Origin: an uncultured Patescibacteria group bacterium | GTDB lineage: Bacteria > Patescibacteriota > JACMRA01 | Assembly: GCA_938041505.1 (NCBI GenBank) | Contig: CALITC010000006.1 | Span: forward strand, 7,389 to 71,388 | Reading direction: 5' to 3' | Length of the DNA: 64,000 nt | Shown: positions 31,296 through 46,556 of the stretch, one piece after another | Position numbering within the stretch: the stretch's first letter is position 1 | Layout: every line of letters begins with the position of its first letter | The notes under the pieces: generated by a model | Told to the model about the DNA's origin: nothing | Seen by the model: the letters and a program-made list of their open reading frames with translations, nothing else | Database searches by the model: none | Position numbers and translations under genes: made by a program

Positions 31296-31370
31296 TGGTG
31301 CCGAAGGACAGAATTGAACTGTCGACACGAGGCTCTTCAGGCCACTGCTCTACCACTGAGCTACTTCGGC
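31296..31370 (-). tRNA. tRNA-Phe(GAA)
   Basis: GCCGAAG...CTTCGGC-A-CCA; loop CT-GAA-GA. Confidence 0.93.
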
Positions 31371-31384
31371 GTATTATATACAAA

Positions 31385-31777
31385 TTACTTAGATAGAGAA
31401 CGTTTGTTCCTTGTTTTCGATGATTTGTTGATATAAGTAAAATATAATTTTGCAACTCCGTCAAGCAAATCTTTCTCCATTTCATAGTGATTCGCTGGAA
31501 TAAGATCTTTACTGTACACTTGTACTATCATATTAACATTGTGGGGAAGCTTACCTTCCGATTTCATATGTTCAAATACAGCGTGCACCCTACGTCGCAA
31601 TTTATTTCTAACTACAGACCTTTTAGATATTTTTTTTGATACTATAACTAGCAGCTTAAAATGTTCCTGTGAGGGAGTTATCTTAATGTAAAAATATTTT
31701 GTTTTGGACTGGTGTCTAGCACGTAGAGATTGAAGTATTTCCTTCGAGTGAACAATTCGATAGGCTTTAGGAAGCAC
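31385..31777 (-). CDS. rnpA: ribonuclease P protein component (probable GTG start at 31777)
   Basis: LPKAYR, VSKKISKRSVVRNKLRR; directly downstream of rpmH. Confidence 0.88.
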   Translation of the reverse strand: MLPKAYRIVHSKEILQSLRARHQSKTKYFYIKITPSQEHFKLLVIVSKKISKRSVVRNKLRRRVHAVFEHMKSEGKLPHNVNMIVQVYSKDLIPANHYEMEKDLLDGVAKLYFTYINKSSKTRNKRSLSK

Positions 31778-31802
31778 AAACCATGAGGTAAGATAGTAAG
31801 AC

Positions 31803-31934
31803 CTAAGCAACAGCTAGCTTTTGCCTCTTTTTGTTTCTACGATTTTTCAAAACATGAGGTGCTTTTCTCATACGCACTCTAAATCCACATTTTCGAGCTC
31901 TTTGTCGGGTTTTCGGTTGGTAAGTACGTTTCAT
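31803..31934 (-). CDS. rpmH: 50S ribosomal protein L34
   Basis: MKRTYQPK...R.RKCGFRVRM, 43 aa. Confidence 0.95.
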   Translation of the reverse strand: MKRTYQPKTRQRARKCGFRVRMRKAPHVLKNRRNKKRQKLAVA

Positions 31935-35164: not shown

Positions 35165-36556
35165 TTAAAACTCTTCGATATCTCCATTCCAACCGCCGGT
35201 GTACAAACCCTCAACATCTACACGCGCATAACCATGAGCACCAAAGTGATCACGCTGTGCCTGGATAAGATTTGTTGGTAAGTGCTCAGAAAACATTGAT
35301 TGAAGATAGTTGTAAGTAGAGTGAATAACAGGTTTTGGCGTAATACCTTTGTACATAATCAAGCGTAGATTGTCCATATCTGCATGAATCTCCTTAAATA
35401 GTTTTTCTTTCCAGTTCTTATCTTCTTCCCAGAACAAATTCAACATACCAAGCATTTGAGATCGAATAATGCACCCGCCTTCCCAGATCCTTATCACTTC
35501 TTTCATATCGACACCCCAGTTCTCTTCTTGATTAGCTTGGTAGATCAGATCCAACCCTTGCAAATAGGAAGTAAGGAACATCAGCTCCATGGTACGATAC
35601 AGAGGAGTTTTGAGATTCTCGTGGGGTTTCTTAGGAACCTGCTGCTCATCCATAATATCTAAACCTTTTAGAAAAGACATATTCCGAGACGACTGTGTAC
35701 GCGCGATCACTGCAGCTGCGATGTTAGGCACTGCAACTCCGTATTTGAGAGCTGCTTCTACAGTCCACCCTCCTGTACCTTTTGCTTTGGCAACATCTTT
35801 GATTCTATCGACCAAATACCCAGTACCTTTGGTATCCTTTTTACCTAGAATATCTAGAGTAATATCCATTAAGAAACTCTGTGTATTCCCATAGTTAAGA
35901 CCACGAAAAACTTCTTGGATCTCTAAAGCACTGTGACCAAACGAGCGAAGCATATCATAAATCTCTCCAAGACCTTGCATCATAGCGTACTCAATACCGT
36001 TATGCACCATCTTCACAAAGTGACCGCTTGGCCCAGATCCAACGGGAGTTACGCAAGGGTGTCCTTGAAAATCTTTAGCTGCCACCTTTTCCAAATACGG
36101 CATAATCTTCTGAAGCGTTTCTGAATCCCCGCCTGGCATAATACTAGGTCCATGGAGAGCTCCATCGGCGCCCCCACTAATTCCACACCCTACAAAGCCT
36201 ACTTTACCAGCCAGCTCCTCTTGCCGGCGAACAGTATCATGCCAATTAGAGTTACCGCAATCAATTATCACGTCTTCCTCGCTAAGCATCGGTAAAAGTT
36301 CTTTAATTACTGCATCTACGGGATATCCACTCTTTACGAGTAGCATGATTTTCTTAGGAGACTCTAGACTTTCCACAAACTCTGCTGTAGTCTTGTATCC
36401 ATGAACTCGATCCGCACCTTTATCCAAGACATGTTGCGTCTTTTCCCAACTGCGATTATAGATTGCTGTATCATACCCTTTTGATGCAAAATTGAGAGCA
36501 AAATTACCTCCCATTGTACTCATCCCAATTATGCCGACGTGATTAGTTGATGTCAT
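35165..36556 (-). CDS. gnd: NADP-dependent 6-phosphogluconate dehydrogenase
   Basis: YNRS, IDCGNS, GISGG..GA..GPSIMPGG, VKMVHNGIEY, LIQAQRD.FGAH. Confidence 0.96.
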   Translation of the reverse strand: MTSTNHVGIIGMSTMGGNFALNFASKGYDTAIYNRSWEKTQHVLDKGADRVHGYKTTAEFVESLESPKKIMLLVKSGYPVDAVIKELLPMLSEEDVIIDCGNSNWHDTVRRQEELAGKVGFVGCGISGGADGALHGPSIMPGGDSETLQKIMPYLEKVAAKDFQGHPCVTPVGSGPSGHFVKMVHNGIEYAMMQGLGEIYDMLRSFGHSALEIQEVFRGLNYGNTQSFLMDITLDILGKKDTKGTGYLVDRIKDVAKAKGTGGWTVEAALKYGVAVPNIAAAVIARTQSSRNMSFLKGLDIMDEQQVPKKPHENLKTPLYRTMELMFLTSYLQGLDLIYQANQEENWGVDMKEVIRIWEGGCIIRSQMLGMLNLFWEEDKNWKEKLFKEIHADMDNLRLIMYKGITPKPVIHSTYNYLQSMFSEHLPTNLIQAQRDHFGAHGYARVDVEGLYTGGWNGDIEEF

Positions 36557-36622
36557 ATATATGTTACCTAAGCTAGTAGCTAATCTTTGTCAACGAATCC
36601 AAAGCAAATTTATAGAGTATGA

Positions 36623-36660
36623 CAAAAAAAATAAGAGCTTTCATTGAAAAAACTCTCTTA
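36623..36660 (-). terminator. terminator of tRNA-like unit 1
   Basis: Minus strand AGAGTTTT-loop-AAAGCTCT followed by a T8 run. Confidence 0.6.
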
Positions 36661-36668
36661 CTATTATA

Positions 36669-36740
36669 TGCCACGGCCTGGATTTGAACCAGGGACCTTT
36701 AGATTTTCAATCTAACACTCTACCACTGAGCTACCGGGGC
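36669..36740 (-). tRNA. second tRNA-Phe(GAA), no encoded CCA, one acceptor-stem mismatch
   Basis: GCCCCGG...CCGTGGC-A; anticodon arm TTAGA-TTGAAAA-TCTAA. Confidence 0.75.
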
Positions 36741-36759
36741 GGGCTTAATGTTAAGCCAA

Positions 36760-36870
36760 CGTGGATGAAAGGAGTTGAACCTTTGACACCTGGGGGCAAT
36801 ACTAAAGAGGTAAGTATTAAGGTTTTCCTCCTTGTAAGTCCCAGTGCTCTACCAACTGAGCTACATCCAC
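36760..36870 (-). tRNA. tRNA-like RNA with a 45-nt structured insert replacing the anticodon loop
   Basis: Perfect acceptor (GTGGATG/CATCCAC), D, T and anticodon (CTGGG/CCCAG) stems; 45-nt loop; no CCA. Confidence 0.75.
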
Positions 36871-36875
36871 AGGGC

Positions 36876-36954
36876 GAGAGTCAACGTGTACATAAATAAA
36901 TTTAATTTGATCGGAATGTAACAAAATCAAGTTATTTTCATAATGTTGACTCTC
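36876..36954 (-). ncRNA. long hairpin RNA in tRNA-like unit 1
   Basis: GAGAGTCAAC/GTTGACTCTC 10-bp closing stem with inner TTGAT/ATCAA stem. Confidence 0.5.
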
Positions 36955-36984
36955 ATATTATAAAAAAATTTTATAACGTTTCTC

Positions 36985-37013
36985 AAGCTAAAATAATTTT
37001 TGAAAACTGTCAA
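36985..37013 (-). promoter_or_regulatory. sigma70-type promoter of tRNA-like unit 1
   Basis: TTGACA-17-TAGCTT on the minus strand. Confidence 0.6.
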
Positions 37014-37016
37014 GAT

Positions 37017-37105
37017 TCAACTTACAATACTGAACTCAATTACATCTCCATCTTGCATCATATAGTCTTTTTCCTCCATATTCTCTGACCATTTCCTTTC
37101 TCCAA
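37017..37105 (-). pseudogene. diverged duplicate of the ychF 3' end
   Basis: Translates LEKG..NMEEKDYMMQDGDVIEFSIVS*, versus the ychF end MEKGKMNMEGKDYLMQDGDVVEFKIAG*. Confidence 0.85.
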
Positions 37106-37128
37106 GAAAGAGAAGATGTTTATTAAAC

Positions 37129-37160
37129 AAAAAAAACCCCATCTAAATATTTTGACGGAG
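37129..37160 (-). terminator. terminator of tRNA-like unit 2
   Basis: Minus strand CTCCGTC-loop-GATGGGG followed by a T8 run. Confidence 0.6.
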
Positions 37161-37174
37161 TAGGAGAAAAATTA

Positions 37175-37254
37175 GTGCGAGAAATAGTGGATAAAGTTTG
37201 CATTTTAAGGTAATTGAATGCAAACCAATTAACATTCCAATAGATTTATCGCAC
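37175..37254 (-). ncRNA. long bulged hairpin RNA in tRNA-like unit 2
   Basis: GTGCGA/TCGCAC closing stem, TGGA/TCCA, inner GTTTGCATT/AATGCAAAC. Confidence 0.5.
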
Positions 37255-37279
37255 AGGCTCACAGTGATGATAGAGCCAA

Positions 37280-37354
37280 AGCACCTGGATGGACTTGAAC
37301 CATCGTCACGTTGATTAAATAAGTCAACGACTCTACCAACTGAGTTACAGGTGC
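37280..37354 (-). tRNA. tRNA-Lys-like RNA with a 9-nt anticodon loop
   Basis: GCACCTG/CAGGTGC acceptor; arm GTTGA-CTTATTTAA-TCAAC; T arm GATGG-TTCAAGT-CCATC; no CCA. Confidence 0.75.
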
Positions 37355-37356
37355 AA

Positions 37357-37482
37357 ACAAGCTGATTTGAAGAGTTGCATGCATCAGCTTGTAAACATAA
37401 ATAATTCTGAAGATATCTCACAATTCCTGCCGAATGCTCTTATCGATAAAGAGGAATTGGAGTTGGAAAGATTTATGTGTTT
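37357..37482 (-). ncRNA. two stacked hairpins at the 5' end of tRNA-like unit 2
   Basis: ACAAGCTGAT/ATCAGCTTGT (37357-37392); ACATAAAT/ATTTATGT enclosing CAATTCCT/AGGAATTG (37393-37482); TTGACA at 37508-37513 upstream. Confidence 0.45.
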
Positions 37483-37569
37483 CTAATAAAACAAAACATG
37501 TTCATTTTGTCAACACAAAGGAGTATTGATTGTGGTTACGACCTCTCTACCGCCTAACCCTACAAGTAG

Positions 37570-38625
37570 CTACCCAGCTATCTTAAACTCTACCACGTCC
37601 CCGTCTTGCATTAGGTAGTCTTTGCCCTCCATATTCATCTTACCTTTTTCCATAGCTTGCTTGCGACCACCGAGTTCTACAAAATCAGCATATTTGATAA
37701 CCTCAGCTTTCACAAAATTCTTTTCAAAGTCAGTATGGATCACCCCGGCACACTGCGGAGCACTCATCCCCTGCTTGAATGTCCACGCTCTTGCTTCAAC
37801 TTCTCCAGCAGTTAGGTAAGTGGCTAAATTAAGGGTAGAGTAACACTCTTGTATCATCTTATCCAAACCAGTCTCCGCAGGCACTCCAAGCTCTACCCGC
37901 TCCTCTGAAGACATGTCTTGCAATTCTGACTCCAACTTCACATCCATTGCAAAATCACTTGTAAAATCAATATTTTCTCCATCAGTAATAATGTTAGCTA
38001 GCTTCAGGATCGGCTTATCTGTGAGTAAGTTAAGACTCTTACGGAAAATCTTAAGTTCTTTGTCAGCCTCCTCATCTCGGGGCACGGTATTGGCTGGATT
38101 ACTGCTCTGCAGCTGCTGCAATATTTCTTGAGCAAGTACTATCTTCTGATCTGCCAGCTTGTCTTTGCCGCCCTTAAGCTCCTTCTCAAGACGCGGCAAA
38201 GCTTTCTCAAGAGTAGCTTGATCTGCCAAAGTTAATTCCAAAATCAGAATATCAAAATCTTCTTGCGGATCTACCCGATTCTCGACGTGCACAACATCAT
38301 CATTCTTAAAGGCCCGAATCACCATCATAATCATATCCACTTCACGAATATGTGACAGGAATTTATTCCCTAGGCCAGCTCCAGAGTGTGCATCTTTGAC
38401 CAGCCCCGCAATATCACGAAATTCAATCGCCGCATGTACCAGCTTCTGCGCATTGACTAGTTTACCCAAAGTATCCACCCGCTGATCAGGTACAGAAACA
38501 ATCCCATCACTTGGCTCAATAGTGCAAAACGGGAAATTCTCCGCTGGCACAGAGCGCTTGGTTAGTAAATTAAAAAGTGTAGATTTTCCTGCATTAGGCA
38601 GGCCAACAAGTCCAACTGAAAGCAT
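37570..38625 (-). CDS. ychF: redox-regulated ATPase YchF
   Basis: GLPNAGKSTLFN, FPFCTIEP, DIAGLV, GLGNKFL, EGKDY.MQDGDV. Confidence 0.97.
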   Translation of the reverse strand: MLSVGLVGLPNAGKSTLFNLLTKRSVPAENFPFCTIEPSDGIVSVPDQRVDTLGKLVNAQKLVHAAIEFRDIAGLVKDAHSGAGLGNKFLSHIREVDMIMMVIRAFKNDDVVHVENRVDPQEDFDILILELTLADQATLEKALPRLEKELKGGKDKLADQKIVLAQEILQQLQSSNPANTVPRDEEADKELKIFRKSLNLLTDKPILKLANIITDGENIDFTSDFAMDVKLESELQDMSSEERVELGVPAETGLDKMIQECYSTLNLATYLTAGEVEARAWTFKQGMSAPQCAGVIHTDFEKNFVKAEVIKYADFVELGGRKQAMEKGKMNMEGKDYLMQDGDVVEFKIAG

Positions 38626-39187: not shown

Positions 39188-39189
39188 TC

Positions 39190-39440
39190 GGTCAAAGACT
39201 TTCATGATTATGTTTTGAGCTTATAGCTCAAAAGCGTCATCATTACAGTCTTTGCCCTCACACCCCTCTCGATCTTAGATCGCCGGGGACCCCTACTTAG
39301 GTTAGCTCAAAAGCACAACTACACTAGTTCTTGCCCTCGTTACCCCACAAATTATCCCCAATCTGTGGGGCTCTCTTTATAGCTGCAATATTTCATCGGT
39401 TAATCTCTTTACCCTTCTCGATCAATAATCGCCATAGACC
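39190..39440 (+). repeat. hairpin and degenerate direct repeats downstream of tRNA-Met
   Basis: CAAAGACT...TTTTGAGC/GCTCAAAA...AGTCTTTG hairpin; TAGCTCAAAAGC..TTGCCCTC occurs twice; TCTCGATC..ATCGCC..GACC occurs twice. Confidence 0.45.
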
Positions 39441-39525
39441 ACCTTAACTATAATTCAGATTTCGCAAAAAAGAAGCCTGAACTATAATGGTACAGGCTCT
39501 CGAAGTAGCTCTTTAAGTTAGAAAA

Positions 39526-42161: not shown

Positions 42162-43322
42162 CTAAGTTACACTCACCCACTCTCCAGCTTCGTTGTAATT
42201 CATGGAACGCGGCCAACCGGCGGCATTCCACACAGCATAGAAAGCTGGTTTCAGCATTTGTTTCAGGTTAAGACCATAATCTTCGAGCAGCACCTCAGGG
42301 ACGATTAAGCCCGAGCGATCGATTGGCTGACTGTCATACCAATGAAAATCTGAAACCTTGCCCATATAAGCCCCTTTGACGTCGAGCATACTCAACATAA
42401 TCAAGAACGGAGGTTCAATCTGGTGATGCCTCATAAAGCTAAACATATCCTCAATCTGCTCCACAACTTCGCGCTCATATTCAGGATTAATAAACGCTTT
42501 TCCTTTCTTGAAACTTAAAAAATTACTTTCCACAATTTCCACAGCACCACTCCGAAAAACTTGAGCGTATGCAGAATCCGAATACATTAAGAACCCATCA
42601 AAATTAAACCGTTGATGTAACACCGAATCCCCAAAAACTTGACTCGGCAAAAATTCTGAATTTTGAAACTGTGAAATATCTACCTGTAGCGCTGGGTTAT
42701 TGATCGACAGCGGCGTGATATGAATTACAAGCTTAGAAGATTCTTTCATCTCGGCCGGAACTTCTCCTGAGACCAAAGCCCCAAGTCTTTGCAGTCGAAA
42801 ATCCCGAATATAGTCAAAATTCTGCTGCGATAAAGAAAACGCCACTCGGATCTCAGAAGCATCTAGTGGGTGCTTACCATAACTATTCCGCGAGAAGAAC
42901 TTCCCATAGCTTTGGTAGCCAACCATGTGCGGCGAAGACCAGCTCCGGGGTACCCGGACAATCACCACATACCGATCTTTTTTGACTTCGATCGCCCGAA
43001 TCTGTACCCCATATATTCGCGGGTCAATCCCATCTCTGATCATGTGTTCGTATTTGAGCAAATGAGTCTCAACATCTTTGATCTTCATCCCCACGATTCT
43101 GGATGGAACCCCGCGATTCTCTACCACACCATAGATCAGATCTCCCCCAGAAGCATTGGCAAACGAAGAAACATCAGCGAGAAATTCTTTCTTACTTCGA
43201 TCGTTATCCTCCGGTAAACACCGCTTGTAATCGATATTTTTACTTTCACGGACTTGATTGGCCACCAACTCATTAATATCTTTGATACTAATCAAATCCA
43301 AACTTTTTTGATATAATGCCAT
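42162..43322 (-). CDS. AlbA_2 (Schlafen-like) domain protein
   Basis: RES..IDYK, DVSSFANASGGDLIYGV, IVRVP.S...PH, F..RN. Confidence 0.85.
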   Translation of the reverse strand: MALYQKSLDLISIKDINELVANQVRESKNIDYKRCLPEDNDRSKKEFLADVSSFANASGGDLIYGVVENRGVPSRIVGMKIKDVETHLLKYEHMIRDGIDPRIYGVQIRAIEVKKDRYVVIVRVPRSWSSPHMVGYQSYGKFFSRNSYGKHPLDASEIRVAFSLSQQNFDYIRDFRLQRLGALVSGEVPAEMKESSKLVIHITPLSINNPALQVDISQFQNSEFLPSQVFGDSVLHQRFNFDGFLMYSDSAYAQVFRSGAVEIVESNFLSFKKGKAFINPEYEREVVEQIEDMFSFMRHHQIEPPFLIMLSMLDVKGAYMGKVSDFHWYDSQPIDRSGLIVPEVLLEDYGLNLKQMLKPAFYAVWNAAGWPRSMNYNEAGEWVSVT

Positions 43323-45052: not shown

Positions 45053-45964
45053 TTATATAAAATCAATCCACTGCTTCTGTGAGTCGATATAGTGAGTATA
45101 AACCTTTGGAATTATAGAATTTGGAAAAATTCCTGGCCAATGGCGATTTGTGATTGTTGTATAGTTATCAGATAAAGTTGCAGTGAAATACTTTGATACC
45201 GACTTCAATCTACTATCATGAATCGGTAAGAATTTACATATCCTACTTAAAGATGAGCCCAACGGGCTAAAAGGCAGTGCATCCAAATGCTGAATACCAT
45301 AACCGGTCAAAGGTTGGGGAATGAGTGAGTGATTTTTACTTGATTTATCATAATTAAAAGTGAAGGGCAGCTTAAAACTAAACCAGGAAGGAAGATCATT
45401 GACGCCCAAAATATCGATATATTCAAAAGGGTGCTCTATTAGACTTTCAACATTTTTTAATGCGTTATTGATATTCAAAATGGGTTTAGATTTAGCTTTT
45501 TTCCATGAATGAGTATGGCACAATACGCCAAAGATGATTGGGTGAAAAATATACTCTAAAAGATCCACAGGAACTGGTTTATACATACTTCTAATTTCCT
45601 TGGCAGTTACTGCTGACTTCGTTAAATGTTCTGATTTTAAAGAATTCTTGCATTCAAACACTGCAAAAACACCTTCTAGAAAATATAATTTTTTATTTAT
45701 TAGATAATTCGGATAATAAGGTTTCAGAACTAAAATATCCAATTGAGGACTTGTATCACCTTTGTCATTGATAAGTCGACCTTTTGTTACTATTTTATAA
45801 TCCGATGGTAACCAATTCCTTAGTATTTCTGCCCAGTTTTCCTCCCCTTGGTCACCTGCTGTTGCTGGATCTTCAATAGTTCTTTGTTTAATCCTAGCAT
45901 ATTCACTTACCAGGAAATTAGTTTGCTGGCTCATAAATACATGCATATCGTTGTTATTGTTCAT
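45053..45964 (-). CDS. DUF6602-like putative PD-(D/E)XK nuclease-domain protein
   Basis: GDQGEENW...LR.WLP..Y.IV.KG, SPQLDILV, VFECK; ATG 45964 avoids overlap with the divergent GNAT. Confidence 0.7.
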   Translation of the reverse strand: MNNNNDMHVFMSQQTNFLVSEYARIKQRTIEDPATAGDQGEENWAEILRNWLPSDYKIVTKGRLINDKGDTSPQLDILVLKPYYPNYLINKKLYFLEGVFAVFECKNSLKSEHLTKSAVTAKEIRSMYKPVPVDLLEYIFHPIIFGVLCHTHSWKKAKSKPILNINNALKNVESLIEHPFEYIDILGVNDLPSWFSFKLPFTFNYDKSSKNHSLIPQPLTGYGIQHLDALPFSPLGSSLSRICKFLPIHDSRLKSVSKYFTATLSDNYTTITNRHWPGIFPNSIIPKVYTHYIDSQKQWIDFI

Positions 45965-46058
45965 TCCATAATTTAGTATGGTAATACTACTTGTACAAAT
46001 CAACCAAGTCAATAAAACATTACACTTATTGCGCAATAGCTTAATGAGACTAAATATT

Positions 46059-46556
46059 ATGACCGCAGCTAAAAATATCCACACCAATAGAACAATTCTG
46101 AGACCTGTAAACACATCTGATACTAACTTCATTCTCCAAGCCAATACTGGAAATGTCCGAAAATACTTCATACCGTTTGACAATGCGACCTCTGTAAAAG
46201 ACTGGATAGCAGAGAATATTTGCAAAATGAAAAAGAGGGAGAAATTAGAGATGATAATTGAGAACGAGCGAACCAAAGAAAAAATAGGTATGGTCGCCTT
46301 GGATAGTCTTCAAGATAAAGGAAAAATAATACCTCGCATTTGGATTGCTCAACCACACCAAGGCAAAGGTTATGCCAAAGAATGCCTGGCAGAATTCATA
46401 GCTTACTTGCAATCCCTGCCCGGATTCGAGAACAAAAGAATAGAATACGAAGTGGACATAGATAATCTAGCCAGTATTCAGCTCGCAAAATCTCTAGGAT
46501 TAACCAAGATATGCACCAAAGAAGATAATGCTGGGCAATACTATGTATATAGTTGA
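46059..46556 (+). CDS. GNAT family N-acetyltransferase
   Basis: T.R.ILRP, HQGKGYAKE, DNLASI.LAKSLG. Confidence 0.85.
   Translation: MTAAKNIHTNRTILRPVNTSDTNFILQANTGNVRKYFIPFDNATSVKDWIAENICKMKKREKLEMIIENERTKEKIGMVALDSLQDKGKIIPRIWIAQPHQGKGYAKECLAEFIAYLQSLPGFENKRIEYEVDIDNLASIQLAKSLGLTKICTKEDNAGQYYVYS

What the first reader, a model, noticed from the sequence alone, without database searches (positions are those of the whole stretch)
36623..37513. Two tandem RNA-only transcription units of stacked hairpins and CCA-less tRNA mimics downstream of ychF
Seen, all on the minus strand. Unit 2 runs: TTGACA (37513), ~90-nt branched hairpin, 10-bp hairpin, tRNA-like gene with a 9-nt anticodon loop, GGCTC/GAGCC hairpin, 80-nt bulged hairpin, terminator. 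Unit 1 runs: TTGACA-17-TAGCTT, 79-nt hairpin, tRNA-like gene with a 45-nt anticodon insert, GGCTTAA/TTAAGCC hairpin, tRNA-Phe, terminator. Modules within each unit sit only 0-5 nt apart and there is no credible ORF. None of the three tRNA-like genes encodes CCA, whereas the three housekeeping tRNAs in the window do. Acceptor, D and T stems are essentially intact while two anticodon loops are altered, which argues against random decay. Inference: a processed array of tRNA mimics and hairpin RNAs, possibly decoys for anticodon nucleases, Y-RNA-like partners of an RNA repair system, or host-directed RNAs. I know of no described system with this layout.
Basis: partly seen in the sequence, partly recalled or inferred. 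Interest (0 to 1): 0.88.

Follow-up and report, generated by a model that had tools for sequence, protein, structure and literature searches.

The report
Extra CCA-less tRNA units beside ychF
Between ychF and gnd, a tiny uncultured (CPR-type) bacterium carries two small RNA-only gene units holding one normal spare tRNA-Phe and two tRNA-shaped genes with broken anticodon loops; they look like acquired extras rather than a proven new RNA system.

Summary
On the minus strand of 36623-37513 there are three tRNA-model matches (72, 56 and 55 bits), one with a 9-nt anticodon loop and one with 45 nt in place of the loop. They are packed 1-4 nt from hairpins, and no ORF there is credible.

Genome-wide, 32 of 36 tRNA(-like) genes encode CCA. 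The four that do not are these three plus one weak tRNA-like gene on another contig. All three duplicate native anticodons without resembling the native genes. A complete relative encodes CCA in 41 of 41 tRNA genes.

A diverged 63-nt copy of the ychF 3' end lies between the two units. Its differences fall 3/4/14 by codon position, so it is a recombination scar between diverged DNAs. I found no homologue of any module in relatives, phages, plasmids or metagenomes. No RNA data exist, so neither covariation nor expression could be tested.

Ro60, RtcB, YrlA, tRNA splicing endonuclease, RNase Z, PIN and PrrC-type genes were not found in the incomplete assembly.

Native stable-RNA genes in this genome also use TTGACA promoters and long trailing hairpins. 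I noticed a separate trailer family with strong covariation.

Most likely these are acquired accessory tRNA units with two non-decoding tRNA-like passengers. A dedicated tRNA-mimic function is not excluded.

The parts
37570..38625 (-). ychF (351 aa), the upstream neighbour. Its last ~63 nt are duplicated in diverged form downstream.
   Evidence: Pfam YchF-GTPase_C 1.2e-35 and MMR_HSR1. Its C-terminus resembles the closest relatives.
37485..37513 (-). Unit 2 promoter-like site: TTGACA, 17 nt, TTTATT.
   Evidence: Sequence. The same grammar is seen in 25 of 32 native tRNA genes, and native tRNA-Val(UAC) has the identical second hexamer. Not listed by the generic scan.
37395..37478 (-). Unit 2 leader hairpin, 84 nt, branched or bulged.
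   Evidence: Fold z -2.57. Domain limits.
37357..37392 (-). Unit 2 hairpin with a perfect 10-bp stem.
   Evidence: Fold z -3.04. Limits.
37280..37354 (-). tRNA-like A: full cloverleaf, 9-nt anticodon loop, discriminator U, no CCA.
   Evidence: RF00005 55.8 bits. 21 of 21 stem pairs. ARAGORN calls it Asn(att), or Lys(ttt) with a 2-nt 'intron'.
37256..37277 (-). Short GGCTC/GAGCC hairpin, 2 nt after the discriminator. The trailer starts TTGGCT.
   Evidence: Fold z -2.87. Limits.
37175..37254 (-). 80-nt bulged hairpin.
   Evidence: Fold z -4.60. Not a member of the native trailer family R1.
37128..37161 (-). Unit 2 terminator-like hairpin (G-U pairs, 10-nt loop) followed by T8.
   Evidence: Fold z -2.70. 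Not listed by the terminator scan.
37017..37094 (-). Relic of a diverged ychF 3' end. The last 22 codons and the stop are in frame; the frame is lost upstream.
   Evidence: 78% identity over 63 nt to 37648-37586, with 0 of 500 shuffles as good. Differences by codon position are 3/4/14.
36985..37013 (-). Unit 1 promoter-like site: TTGACA, 17 nt, TAGCTT. An alternative, TTGAGA-18-TATAAT, lies at 36986-36957.
   Evidence: Sequence. Native consensus. Alternative site.
36876..36954 (-). Unit 1 leader hairpin, 79 nt, with a 10-bp closing stem.
   Evidence: Fold z -3.05. Limits.
36760..36870 (-). tRNA-like B: full acceptor, D and T arms and a 5-bp anticodon stem. The 7-nt loop is replaced by 45 nt that fold into an extension hairpin. 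Discriminator G, no CCA.
   Evidence: RF00005 55.2 bits with 45 inserted nt. 21 of 21 stem pairs. Fold. ARAGORN's 'intron' calls disagree: Val(tac) with 36 nt, Gln(ttg) with 38 nt.
36742..36757 (-). Short GGCTTAA/TTAAGCC hairpin, 2 nt after the discriminator. The trailer starts TTGGCT.
   Evidence: Fold z -3.08. Limits.
36669..36740 (-). tRNA-Phe(GAA): canonical loop, one C-U mismatch in the acceptor stem, no CCA. A second Phe gene, unlike the native one at 31296-31370.
   Evidence: 72.3 bits. 20 of 21 pairs. Comparison with native tRNAs.
36623..36657 (-). Unit 1 terminator-like hairpin followed by T8.
   Evidence: Fold z -2.75. Not listed by the terminator scan.
35165..36556 (-). gnd (6-phosphogluconate dehydrogenase), the downstream neighbour.
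   Evidence: Pfam 6PGD 2.9e-79 and NAD_binding_2.

Best explanation
These are two small accessory tRNA-type transcription units. They are not part of the organism's own tRNA set and reached this spot by recombination with diverged DNA at the 3' end of ychF.

Unit 1 carries a normal-looking spare tRNA-Phe(GAA). Each unit also carries a tRNA-shaped gene with perfect acceptor, D and T arms but an anticodon loop of 9 nt or 45 nt, so it cannot decode in the ordinary way.

Inferred working:
- Each unit is transcribed from a TTGACA-17-TAnnTT site like those of the native tRNA genes and ends at a hairpin plus T8.
- RNase P (protein and RNA genes are present) cuts at the 5' end of each tRNA shape and so frees the leader hairpins.
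- An unidentified nuclease cuts between the discriminator and the TTGGCT hairpin.
- The 303-aa CCA-type nucleotidyltransferase would have to add CCA.

The tRNA-Phe may then serve as a spare. The two aberrant RNAs are most likely non-decoding passengers: inactive relics, or tRNA shapes kept only as processing sites.

Shown: the anatomy, the CCA contrast, the redundancy, the ychF relic and the lack of homologues. Inferred: transcription, processing, the origin by transfer, and the lack of a decoding role.
For: - **Not native.** 32 of 36 tRNA(-like) genes encode CCA. The exceptions are these three and one weak tRNA-like gene on contig C21. A complete genome of the same family encodes CCA in 41 of 41 tRNA genes, with no aberrant loop.
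- **Redundant.** Native Phe-GAA, Val-UAC and Lys-UUU genes exist. The locus genes are no closer to them than to unrelated tRNAs, at 0.7-0.8 identity.
- **Recombination scar.** The ychF relic is 78% identical over 63 nt, with 0 of 500 shuffles as good. Its differences fall 3/4/14 by codon position and the stop is kept, which marks divergence as a working gene elsewhere. Beyond the relic and the generic tRNA D-arm the two units share nothing, so they are not a recent tandem duplicate.
- **Not a conserved ychF neighbour.** In the 8 CPR-labelled ychF loci I examined of the 80 returned, including the four best (60-69% aa), no tRNA lies directly downstream of ychF, and the next ORF starts 16-254 nt after it.
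- **Host-style signals.** 25 of 32 native tRNA genes have TTGACA ending 30-51 nt upstream, with a T-A-T-T-w-T second hexamer. Both units match this.
- **Hairpins beside stable-RNA genes are normal here.** At least 11 native tRNA genes carry a conserved trailing hairpin that starts TCGGTC or TTGGCT.
- **Processing genes.** The RNase P protein gene lies at 31385-31810 and the RNase P RNA on contig C8. A CCA-nucleotidyltransferase-like gene is present.
- **The assembly is sound.** An independent contig of the one holder run covers 35900-38300 with 0 differences at even depth.
- **Precedent.** Horizontally spread supernumerary tRNA arrays in which 3 of 26 genes behave as pseudogenes are described (PMC8421152, abstract and passages seen).
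Against: - No donor was found. Matches in phages (316 records, each covering <=8% of the query), in 400 other genomes of the phylum, in plasmids, and to exact patterns in viral and metagenome contigs are generic tRNA similarity or nothing.
- No integrase or phage gene lies nearby. The flanks are housekeeping genes.
- Both lesions sit exactly in the anticodon loop while 42 of 42 stem pairs are intact. Both units keep promoter and terminator. The units are among the most structured 2-4% of ORF-free gaps. This pattern fits selection for a tRNA shape as well as it fits recent arrival.
- The resident ychF end looks more like the relatives than the relic does. So it is unclear which unit is the newcomer.
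- RNase Z was not found, which leaves 3' maturation of CCA-less precursors unexplained.
Confidence: 0.55

Rival explanations
1. A selected, non-decoding tRNA-mimic system. The tRNA shapes serve either as RNase P 'punctuation' that releases defined hairpin RNAs, or as decoys that soak up tRNA-targeting nucleases or tRNA-binding proteins of a phage, a host or a competitor.
For: - Lesions are confined to the anticodon loops, with 42 of 42 stem pairs intact.
- Three of the four CCA-less genes in the genome have non-canonical anticodon loops, against none of the 32 CCA-encoding genes.
- Both units show the same module order: ychF-type end, promoter, long hairpin, tRNA shape, TT plus a GGCT hairpin, a 72-80-nt structured module, terminator. 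This holds although they share no sequence.
- Promoters and terminators are kept, and the units are highly structured.
Against: - There is only a single genome. No homologue exists in 25 family genomes, in 400 genomes of the phylum, or in the phage, plasmid, viral-contig and metagenome collections.
- A complete relative has no such genes.
- No PIN, PrrC-type, Ro60 or RtcB gene was found in the assembly, which is 69% complete by markers.
- There is no Rfam family match.
- Intact stems are equally expected after recent acquisition.
Confidence: 0.22
2. The two aberrant genes are working decoders. The 45 nt would be an intron removed by an unknown route, and the 9-nt loop would read an expanded or shifted codon.
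For: - The bodies score within the native range: 55-56 bits against 53-80.
- ARAGORN can model both with 'introns'.
- tRNAs with an extra anticodon-loop base that shift the frame are known (listing only).
Against: - 45 nt is far too short for a group I intron, by my own knowledge of intron sizes, and there is no intron family hit.
- tRNA splicing endonuclease and RtcB were not found.
- The fold shows a 3 x 5 internal loop plus a 10-bp helix. By my reading this is not a bulge-helix-bulge.
- ARAGORN's splice sites and identities disagree between runs: Val with 36 nt against Gln with 38 nt.
- All the candidate anticodons are already served by native genes.
Confidence: 0.08
3. An in-place tandem duplication of 'ychF end plus downstream RNA unit', followed by divergence.
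For: The module order is parallel in the two units, and a ychF 3' end stands before each.
Against: The unselected relic still aligns at 78%, while the sequence that follows each stop codon does not align at all. The relic's differences are mostly at third codon positions, which means it diverged while still coding.
Confidence: 0.07
4. An assembly artefact that joins two strains.
For: The source is a metagenome-assembled genome, and the duplicated ychF end could in principle mislead an assembler.
Against: The longest identical run between the two ychF ends is about 11 nt (alignment), too short for a k-mer join. An independent contig set of the holder run spans 35900-38300 in one 7806-nt piece with 0 differences and flat depth of 17.4. 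It is probably built from the same reads.
Confidence: 0.03

Closest known systems
Horizontally disseminated supernumerary tRNA gene arrays (for example the Anabaena trn operon; PMC8421152, abstract and passages seen; tRNA array units, PMC4758250, abstract seen)
   Same: Extra tRNA genes redundant with the housekeeping set, clustered in their own operons, of foreign origin, and including members that behave as pseudogenes.
   Different: Those arrays hold 20-43 genes; this locus holds 3 in two units. Here long hairpins fill the spacers, two of the three genes have altered anticodon loops, and no vector (plasmid, phage or conjugative element) is visible.
Phage tRNA clusters with co-processed stable RNAs (T4 tRNA region with species 1 and 2 RNAs; recalled, no call)
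   Same: CCA-less tRNA genes are packed with small structured RNAs of unknown role in one transcript that RNase P cuts.
   Different: There are no phage genes nearby. Phage database hits are only generic tRNA similarity, and exact patterns are absent from viral contigs.
tRNA-like 'punctuation' elements (mitochondrial tRNA punctuation; mascRNA at the MALAT1 3' end; recalled, no call)
   Same: A tRNA shape without a decoding role could direct RNase P to release the neighbouring RNA. That would explain the intact acceptor and T arms alongside free anticodon loops.
   Different: Those cases are eukaryotic or organellar. Nothing here shows processing, and the mascRNA model gave no hit in the finding.
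YrlA / Y RNA with Ro60 (Rsr) and RtcB
   Same: A non-coding RNA with a tRNA-like module plus a long stem.
   Different: There is no Rfam match even at E<=10. TROVE and RtcB were not found in the genome. The tRNA-likes here have full cloverleaves.
This genome's own tRNA trailer hairpin (model R1, built here)
   Same: A long hairpin placed 1-6 nt after a stable-RNA gene. It starts TCGGTC or TTGGCT, like the short hairpins after tRNA-likes A and B.
   Different: No hairpin of the finding matches R1, even with filters off at E<=10. R1 follows CCA-encoding native genes.

Membership tests
Canonical bacterial tRNA (Rfam RF00005) | Cloverleaf with a 7-bp acceptor, D, anticodon and T stems, scoring above the gathering score | tested here: met
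   72.3, 55.8 and 55.2 bits against a gathering score of 29. 20 of 21, 21 of 21 and 21 of 21 stem pairs.
Canonical bacterial tRNA (Rfam RF00005) | 7-nt anticodon loop | tested here: not met
   Met only by tRNA-Phe. tRNA-like A has 9 nt and tRNA-like B has 45 nt.
Canonical bacterial tRNA (Rfam RF00005) | 3' CCA, either encoded or added | tested here: inconclusive
   Not encoded in any of the three, against 32 of 32 native genes. A CCA-nucleotidyltransferase-like gene exists, at 217.8 bits below the curated cut-off of 290. Addition cannot be tested here.
Intron-containing tRNA gene (group I or bulge-helix-bulge) | A group I catalytic core, or a splicing endonuclease plus ligase in the genome | tested here: not met
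   No intron family hit. PF01974 and RtcB were not found, in an assembly 69% complete by markers.
YrlA / Ro60 RNP | A YrlA-type RNA and a TROVE (Ro60) gene | tested here: not met
   No Rfam hit at E<=10. PF05731 was not found.
tRNA array unit / L-array | At least 20 tRNA genes at 2 or more per kb (definition in the abstract of PMC4758250) | tested here: not met
   Three genes in 0.9 kb.
tRNA array unit / L-array | Supernumerary genes of foreign origin | tested here: inconclusive
   Redundant and unlike the native genes. The ychF relic marks a recombination. No donor was found.
Integrative element inserted at a gene's 3' end | An integrase, and flanking direct repeats with an identical core | tested here: not met
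   No integrase among the neighbours. There is only one relic, with identical runs of 11 nt at most, and no second copy before gnd (86 of 500 shuffles as good).
Native trailer hairpin family R1 (this genome) | A match to covariance model R1 | tested here: not met
   No match within 36600-37570 with filters off at E<=10.

The most novel reading that the evidence does not exclude
Units 1 and 2 are diverged counterparts from two lineages. In both lineages, ychF is followed by the same RNA operon design: leader hairpin, CCA-less tRNA shape with a free anticodon region, GGCT hairpin, second structured RNA, terminator. On this reading the design is old and selected. The tRNA shapes are not decoders. 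They act as RNase P handles or decoys that produce or protect small hairpin RNAs, which would be a bacterial tRNA-punctuated small-RNA operon in a CPR organism.
Probability: 0.15. Interest if true: 0.75.

Novelty: new variant of a known kind. Interest (0 to 1): 0.4.

Why it matters
If these are only acquired spare tRNA genes with two dead passengers, the locus is a small curiosity. It shows that even ~1-Mb CPR genomes take up and keep foreign tRNA units, and that a ychF 3' end can be a recombination point.

If the tRNA shapes are kept for their shape, this would be a rare bacterial case of tRNA mimics used as processing handles or decoys. It would also give a defined RNA to look for in CPR metatranscriptomes.

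The by-product may matter more. This genome attaches a covarying ~70-nt hairpin directly to at least 11 native tRNA genes and to the flanks of the RNase P RNA gene. That is an undescribed stable-RNA trailer, and it could be tested for a role in termination or 3' maturation in an organism where RNase Z was not found.

Tried and rejected
**Homologue hunting (all blank or generic)**
- BLAST of the locus against 40 relatives, the 25 other genomes of the family, and the order and class, which hold the same 27 genomes, gave only generic matches.
- In 400 other genomes of the phylum, 6 had a hit. All six are 83-87% identical over 55-61 nt of the tRNA-Phe part. The two I checked are tRNA-Ile genes.
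- Phage records: 316 with a match, none covering more than 8% of the query.
- Plasmids: none at E<=1e-6.
- Exact patterns found nothing in viral contigs or metagenome contigs.
- The C-terminal half of ychF in metagenome contigs gave a best match of only 38-44% aa.

**Expression.** No RNA holder is listed. One DNA run holds the stretch and may be its source. Laying contigs of 3 runs gave one spanning contig, no variants and no joints that skip a unit.

**Relation of the hairpins to the native trailer family.** Rejected.

**A second ychF relic before gnd.** Not significant.

**A shared special promoter for the CCA-less genes (TTGACA-N17-nAGCTT).** Only 5 such sites occur in the genome, and they do not form a class.

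**A family-wide list of aberrant tRNAs from the RF00005 search.** The table shows only the best 150 of 940 matches, so outliers could not be read. I scanned one complete relative instead.

**Defence link.**
- PADLOC gave only a PD-DExK/NucC-like hit, for the DUF6602 protein 7.5 kb away.
- No PIN or AAA_13 gene was found.

**Literature.** Four searches found no paper on CCA-less tRNA mimics or tRNA trailers in CPR bacteria. This rests on those searches only. Supplements were not consulted.

**Not done.** No structure or complex prediction was relevant. The 92-aa ORF was not searched beyond Pfam.
Full report
**What is there**

On the minus strand between ychF (37570-38625) and gnd (35165-36556; both by Pfam) lie about 1 kb without a credible ORF. 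The Rfam tRNA model and ARAGORN find three tRNA-shaped genes:
- tRNA-like A, 37354-37280, 55.8 bits, with a 9-nt anticodon loop.
- tRNA-like B, 36870-36760, 55.2 bits, with 45 nt where the 7-nt loop belongs.
- tRNA-Phe(GAA), 36740-36669, 72.3 bits.

Under the standard cloverleaf, A and B each keep 21 of 21 stem pairs and Phe keeps 20 of 21. Their scores lie inside the range of the native genes, 53-80 bits.

The minimum-energy fold of each whole unit reproduces the modular picture. Gaps between modules are 1-4 nt, and 12-13 nt before the terminal hairpin plus T8. The units score z -5.3 and -3.9. In 81 other ORF-free gaps of the genome the median is -0.97; two reach -5.3 and three reach -3.9. 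That comparison is rough, because window lengths and shuffle numbers differ and tRNAs fold well anyway. Both DNA strands fold about equally, so folding does not tell which strand is the RNA.

No Rfam family other than tRNA matches, even at E<=10.

**The organism and its native tRNA set**

The window lies in a 1.12-Mb, 26-contig assembly, 69% complete by markers. The closest ychF genes are in MAGs labelled Paceibacterota, SR1 or 'bacterium', at 60-69% aa. This is a CPR/Patescibacteria-type genome.

ARAGORN with introns allowed finds 36 tRNA(-like) genes, and 32 end in CCA. The four that do not are the three of this locus and a weak tRNA-like gene on contig C21 (32 bits). The native set already holds Phe-GAA, Val-UAC and Lys-UUU. 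The locus genes are no more like those than like unrelated tRNAs.

In a complete single-contig genome of the same family (G017), 41 of 41 tRNA genes encode CCA and none has an aberrant loop. In loci of other relatives, 24 of 29 tRNA genes end in CCA. The five exceptions lie in two genomes of other families.

So CCA-encoding is the family's habit, and the CCA-less genes are additions.

Between the units, at 37094-37017, lies a copy of the last ~63 nt of ychF. It is 78% identical, and 0 of 500 shuffles score as well. Over the last 22 codons the two copies differ at 3 first, 4 second and 14 third positions, and the stop codon stands at the same place. Upstream of that the frame is lost.

This is the pattern of two ychF genes that diverged while both were working. 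It is not the pattern of a duplicate decaying in place. Right after the two stop codons the sequences no longer align. Apart from the relic and the generic D-arm the units share nothing. No second relic lies before gnd.

The locus is therefore a joint between two diverged pieces of DNA, each bringing 'ychF end plus an RNA unit'. Which piece is the newcomer is open. The resident C-terminus is closer to the relatives than the relic is.

An assembly chimera is unlikely. The identical runs are 11 nt at most, and an independent contig of the only holder run spans 35900-38300 without a difference at flat depth.

**No relatives of the locus**

In the 8 CPR-labelled ychF loci I examined of the 80 returned, no tRNA follows ychF, and the next ORF begins 16-254 nt downstream. 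Searches gave only generic tRNA or ychF matches, or nothing:
- The locus against 40 relatives, the whole family (25 other genomes), the order and class (27 genomes), and 400 other genomes of the phylum.
- Phages and plasmids.
- Exact patterns in viral and metagenome contigs.
- The C-terminal half of ychF in metagenome contigs, best 38-44% aa.

One public run holds the stretch, probably its source. No RNA run is listed.

**Context that changes the reading**

Native tRNA genes here are mostly single units. 25 of 32 have TTGACA ending 30-51 nt upstream, followed after 17 nt by a hexamer with consensus T-A-T-T-(T/A)-T. Both units of the finding have TTGACA-17-TTTATT or TAGCTT. The first of these is identical to the site of native tRNA-Val(UAC). 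Their leaders are about 140-150 nt instead of about 10-20 nt.

Eleven native tRNA genes are followed, 1-6 nt after CCA, by a conserved ~70-nt three-part hairpin.
- On the 11 copies, 95.6% of cells pair and 17 of 25 pairs show double changes.
- No shuffle out of 500 reaches any measure, and slid controls pair at 36-50%.
- A covariance model finds weaker copies after two more tRNA genes and on both sides of the RNase P RNA gene region.
- It finds only two weak hits in 40 other genomes, and none inside the finding.

These trailers begin TCGGTC or TTGGCT. The short hairpins after tRNA-likes A and B also begin TTGGCT, directly after the discriminator plus TT.

Stacking hairpins against stable-RNA genes is thus normal in this genome. 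The finding uses the same signals but different hairpins.

**Partners**

| Gene or family | Result |
|---|---|
| PolyA_pol-type nucleotidyltransferase, 303 aa | Present; best match CCA tRNA nucleotidyltransferase, 217.8 bits, below the curated 290 |
| RNase P protein | Present at 31385-31810 |
| Reduced RNase P RNA | Present on contig C8 |
| RNase J | Present in the window |
| RNase Z | Not found |
| RtcB | Not found |
| tRNA splicing endonuclease | Not found |
| TROVE/Ro60 | Not found |
| PIN | Not found |
| AAA_13 (PrrC/RloC type) | Not found |

Absence in a 69%-by-markers assembly is weak evidence.

ARAGORN's 'introns' are unstable: Val(UAC) with 36 nt in one run and Gln(UUG) with 38 nt in another. 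The 45 nt fold into an extension of the anticodon stem through a 3 x 5 internal loop. By my reading this is not a bulge-helix-bulge, and it is too short for a group I intron (my own knowledge).

**Verdict**

The anatomy is real and unusual. The best-supported reading is two accessory, acquired tRNA-type units at a ychF recombination scar. One carries a usable spare tRNA-Phe, and each carries a tRNA shape that cannot decode normally.

Whether those shapes are dead passengers or are kept for their shape (as RNase P handles or as decoys) cannot be decided. For selection speak the loop-only lesions, the intact signals and the parallel module order of two unrelated units. For passengers speak the single-genome occurrence, the lack of partners and the absence from a complete relative. 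Horizontally spread supernumerary tRNA arrays with pseudogenes are the nearest described kind (PMC8421152, abstract and passages seen). This locus is a miniature, hairpin-rich variant of that kind.

Noticed in passing
window 39188-39277 (+), after tRNA-Met; also G000 C3:13447, C7:20996, C7:1845(-), C1:41509, C1:42507(-), C4:40509(-), C4:102794(-), C17:8055, C1:15625, C1:26264: A conserved ~70-nt three-part hairpin starts 1-6 nt after the CCA of 11 native tRNA genes. 25 pairs are predicted, 17 with compensatory double changes, 95.6% of cells pair, and 0 of 500 shuffles do as well. There is no Rfam match. Only 2 weak hits occur in 40 other genomes. A C-rich tail follows the hairpin. It may be a terminator, a processing signal or a separate stable RNA.
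   Followed up: partly
window 39278-39450 (+): Downstream of the tRNA-Met trailer come further partial copies of the same element (nhmmer hits at window 39302-39349 and 39381-39416). This makes a ~330-nt non-coding array. Second copies also follow the trailers of tRNA-Gln(CUG) and tRNA-Trp.
   Followed up: no
L199:379-450 (-) = G000 C21:6778-6849: A fourth CCA-less tRNA-like gene (32.2 bits). It has its own TTGACA-17-CAGCTT site 36 nt upstream, a terminator directly after it, and an anticodon loop without U33.
   Followed up: partly
L219:277-542 (-) = G000 C8:33576-33841: The RNase P RNA gene scores only 75.5 bits, below the family's gathering score of 100, and spans 266 nt against a 367-position model. 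Trailer-like hairpins (44 and 42 bits with model R1) lie at C8:33834-33923 (+) and C8:33979-34068 (-), next to it.
   Followed up: no
whole genome G000: RNase Z (TIGR02651) was not found, while every native tRNA gene encodes CCA. The relative G017 likewise encodes CCA in 41 of 41 genes.
   Followed up: partly
G000 C19:5685-6038 and C26:8798-9185 (L221, L222): Two other ORF-free gaps fold far better than shuffles (z -6.7 and -5.5) and have no Rfam match at E<=0.01. They may be further structured RNAs.
   Followed up: no
window 45053-46276 (-) and 42162-43322 (-): A DUF6602 protein carries a PD-DExK/NucC-like nuclease match in PADLOC (6e-23). A Schlafen AlbA_2-domain protein lies nearby. Both sit a few kb upstream of ychF and may be defence-related. 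No link to the finding was shown.
   Followed up: no
L203 (G002:C2, after tRNA-Trp) and L204 (G019:C9, after tRNA-Phe): Two relatives of the family carry a weaker version of the tRNA-trailing hairpin (43 and 34 bits), directly after CCA and ending in a CTCC-type tail.
   Followed up: no
G000 C4:40510-40586 (-): A native, CCA-encoding tRNA-Ile with anticodon UAU is present (also in G017). An Ile-GAU gene was not seen in this incomplete assembly.
   Followed up: no
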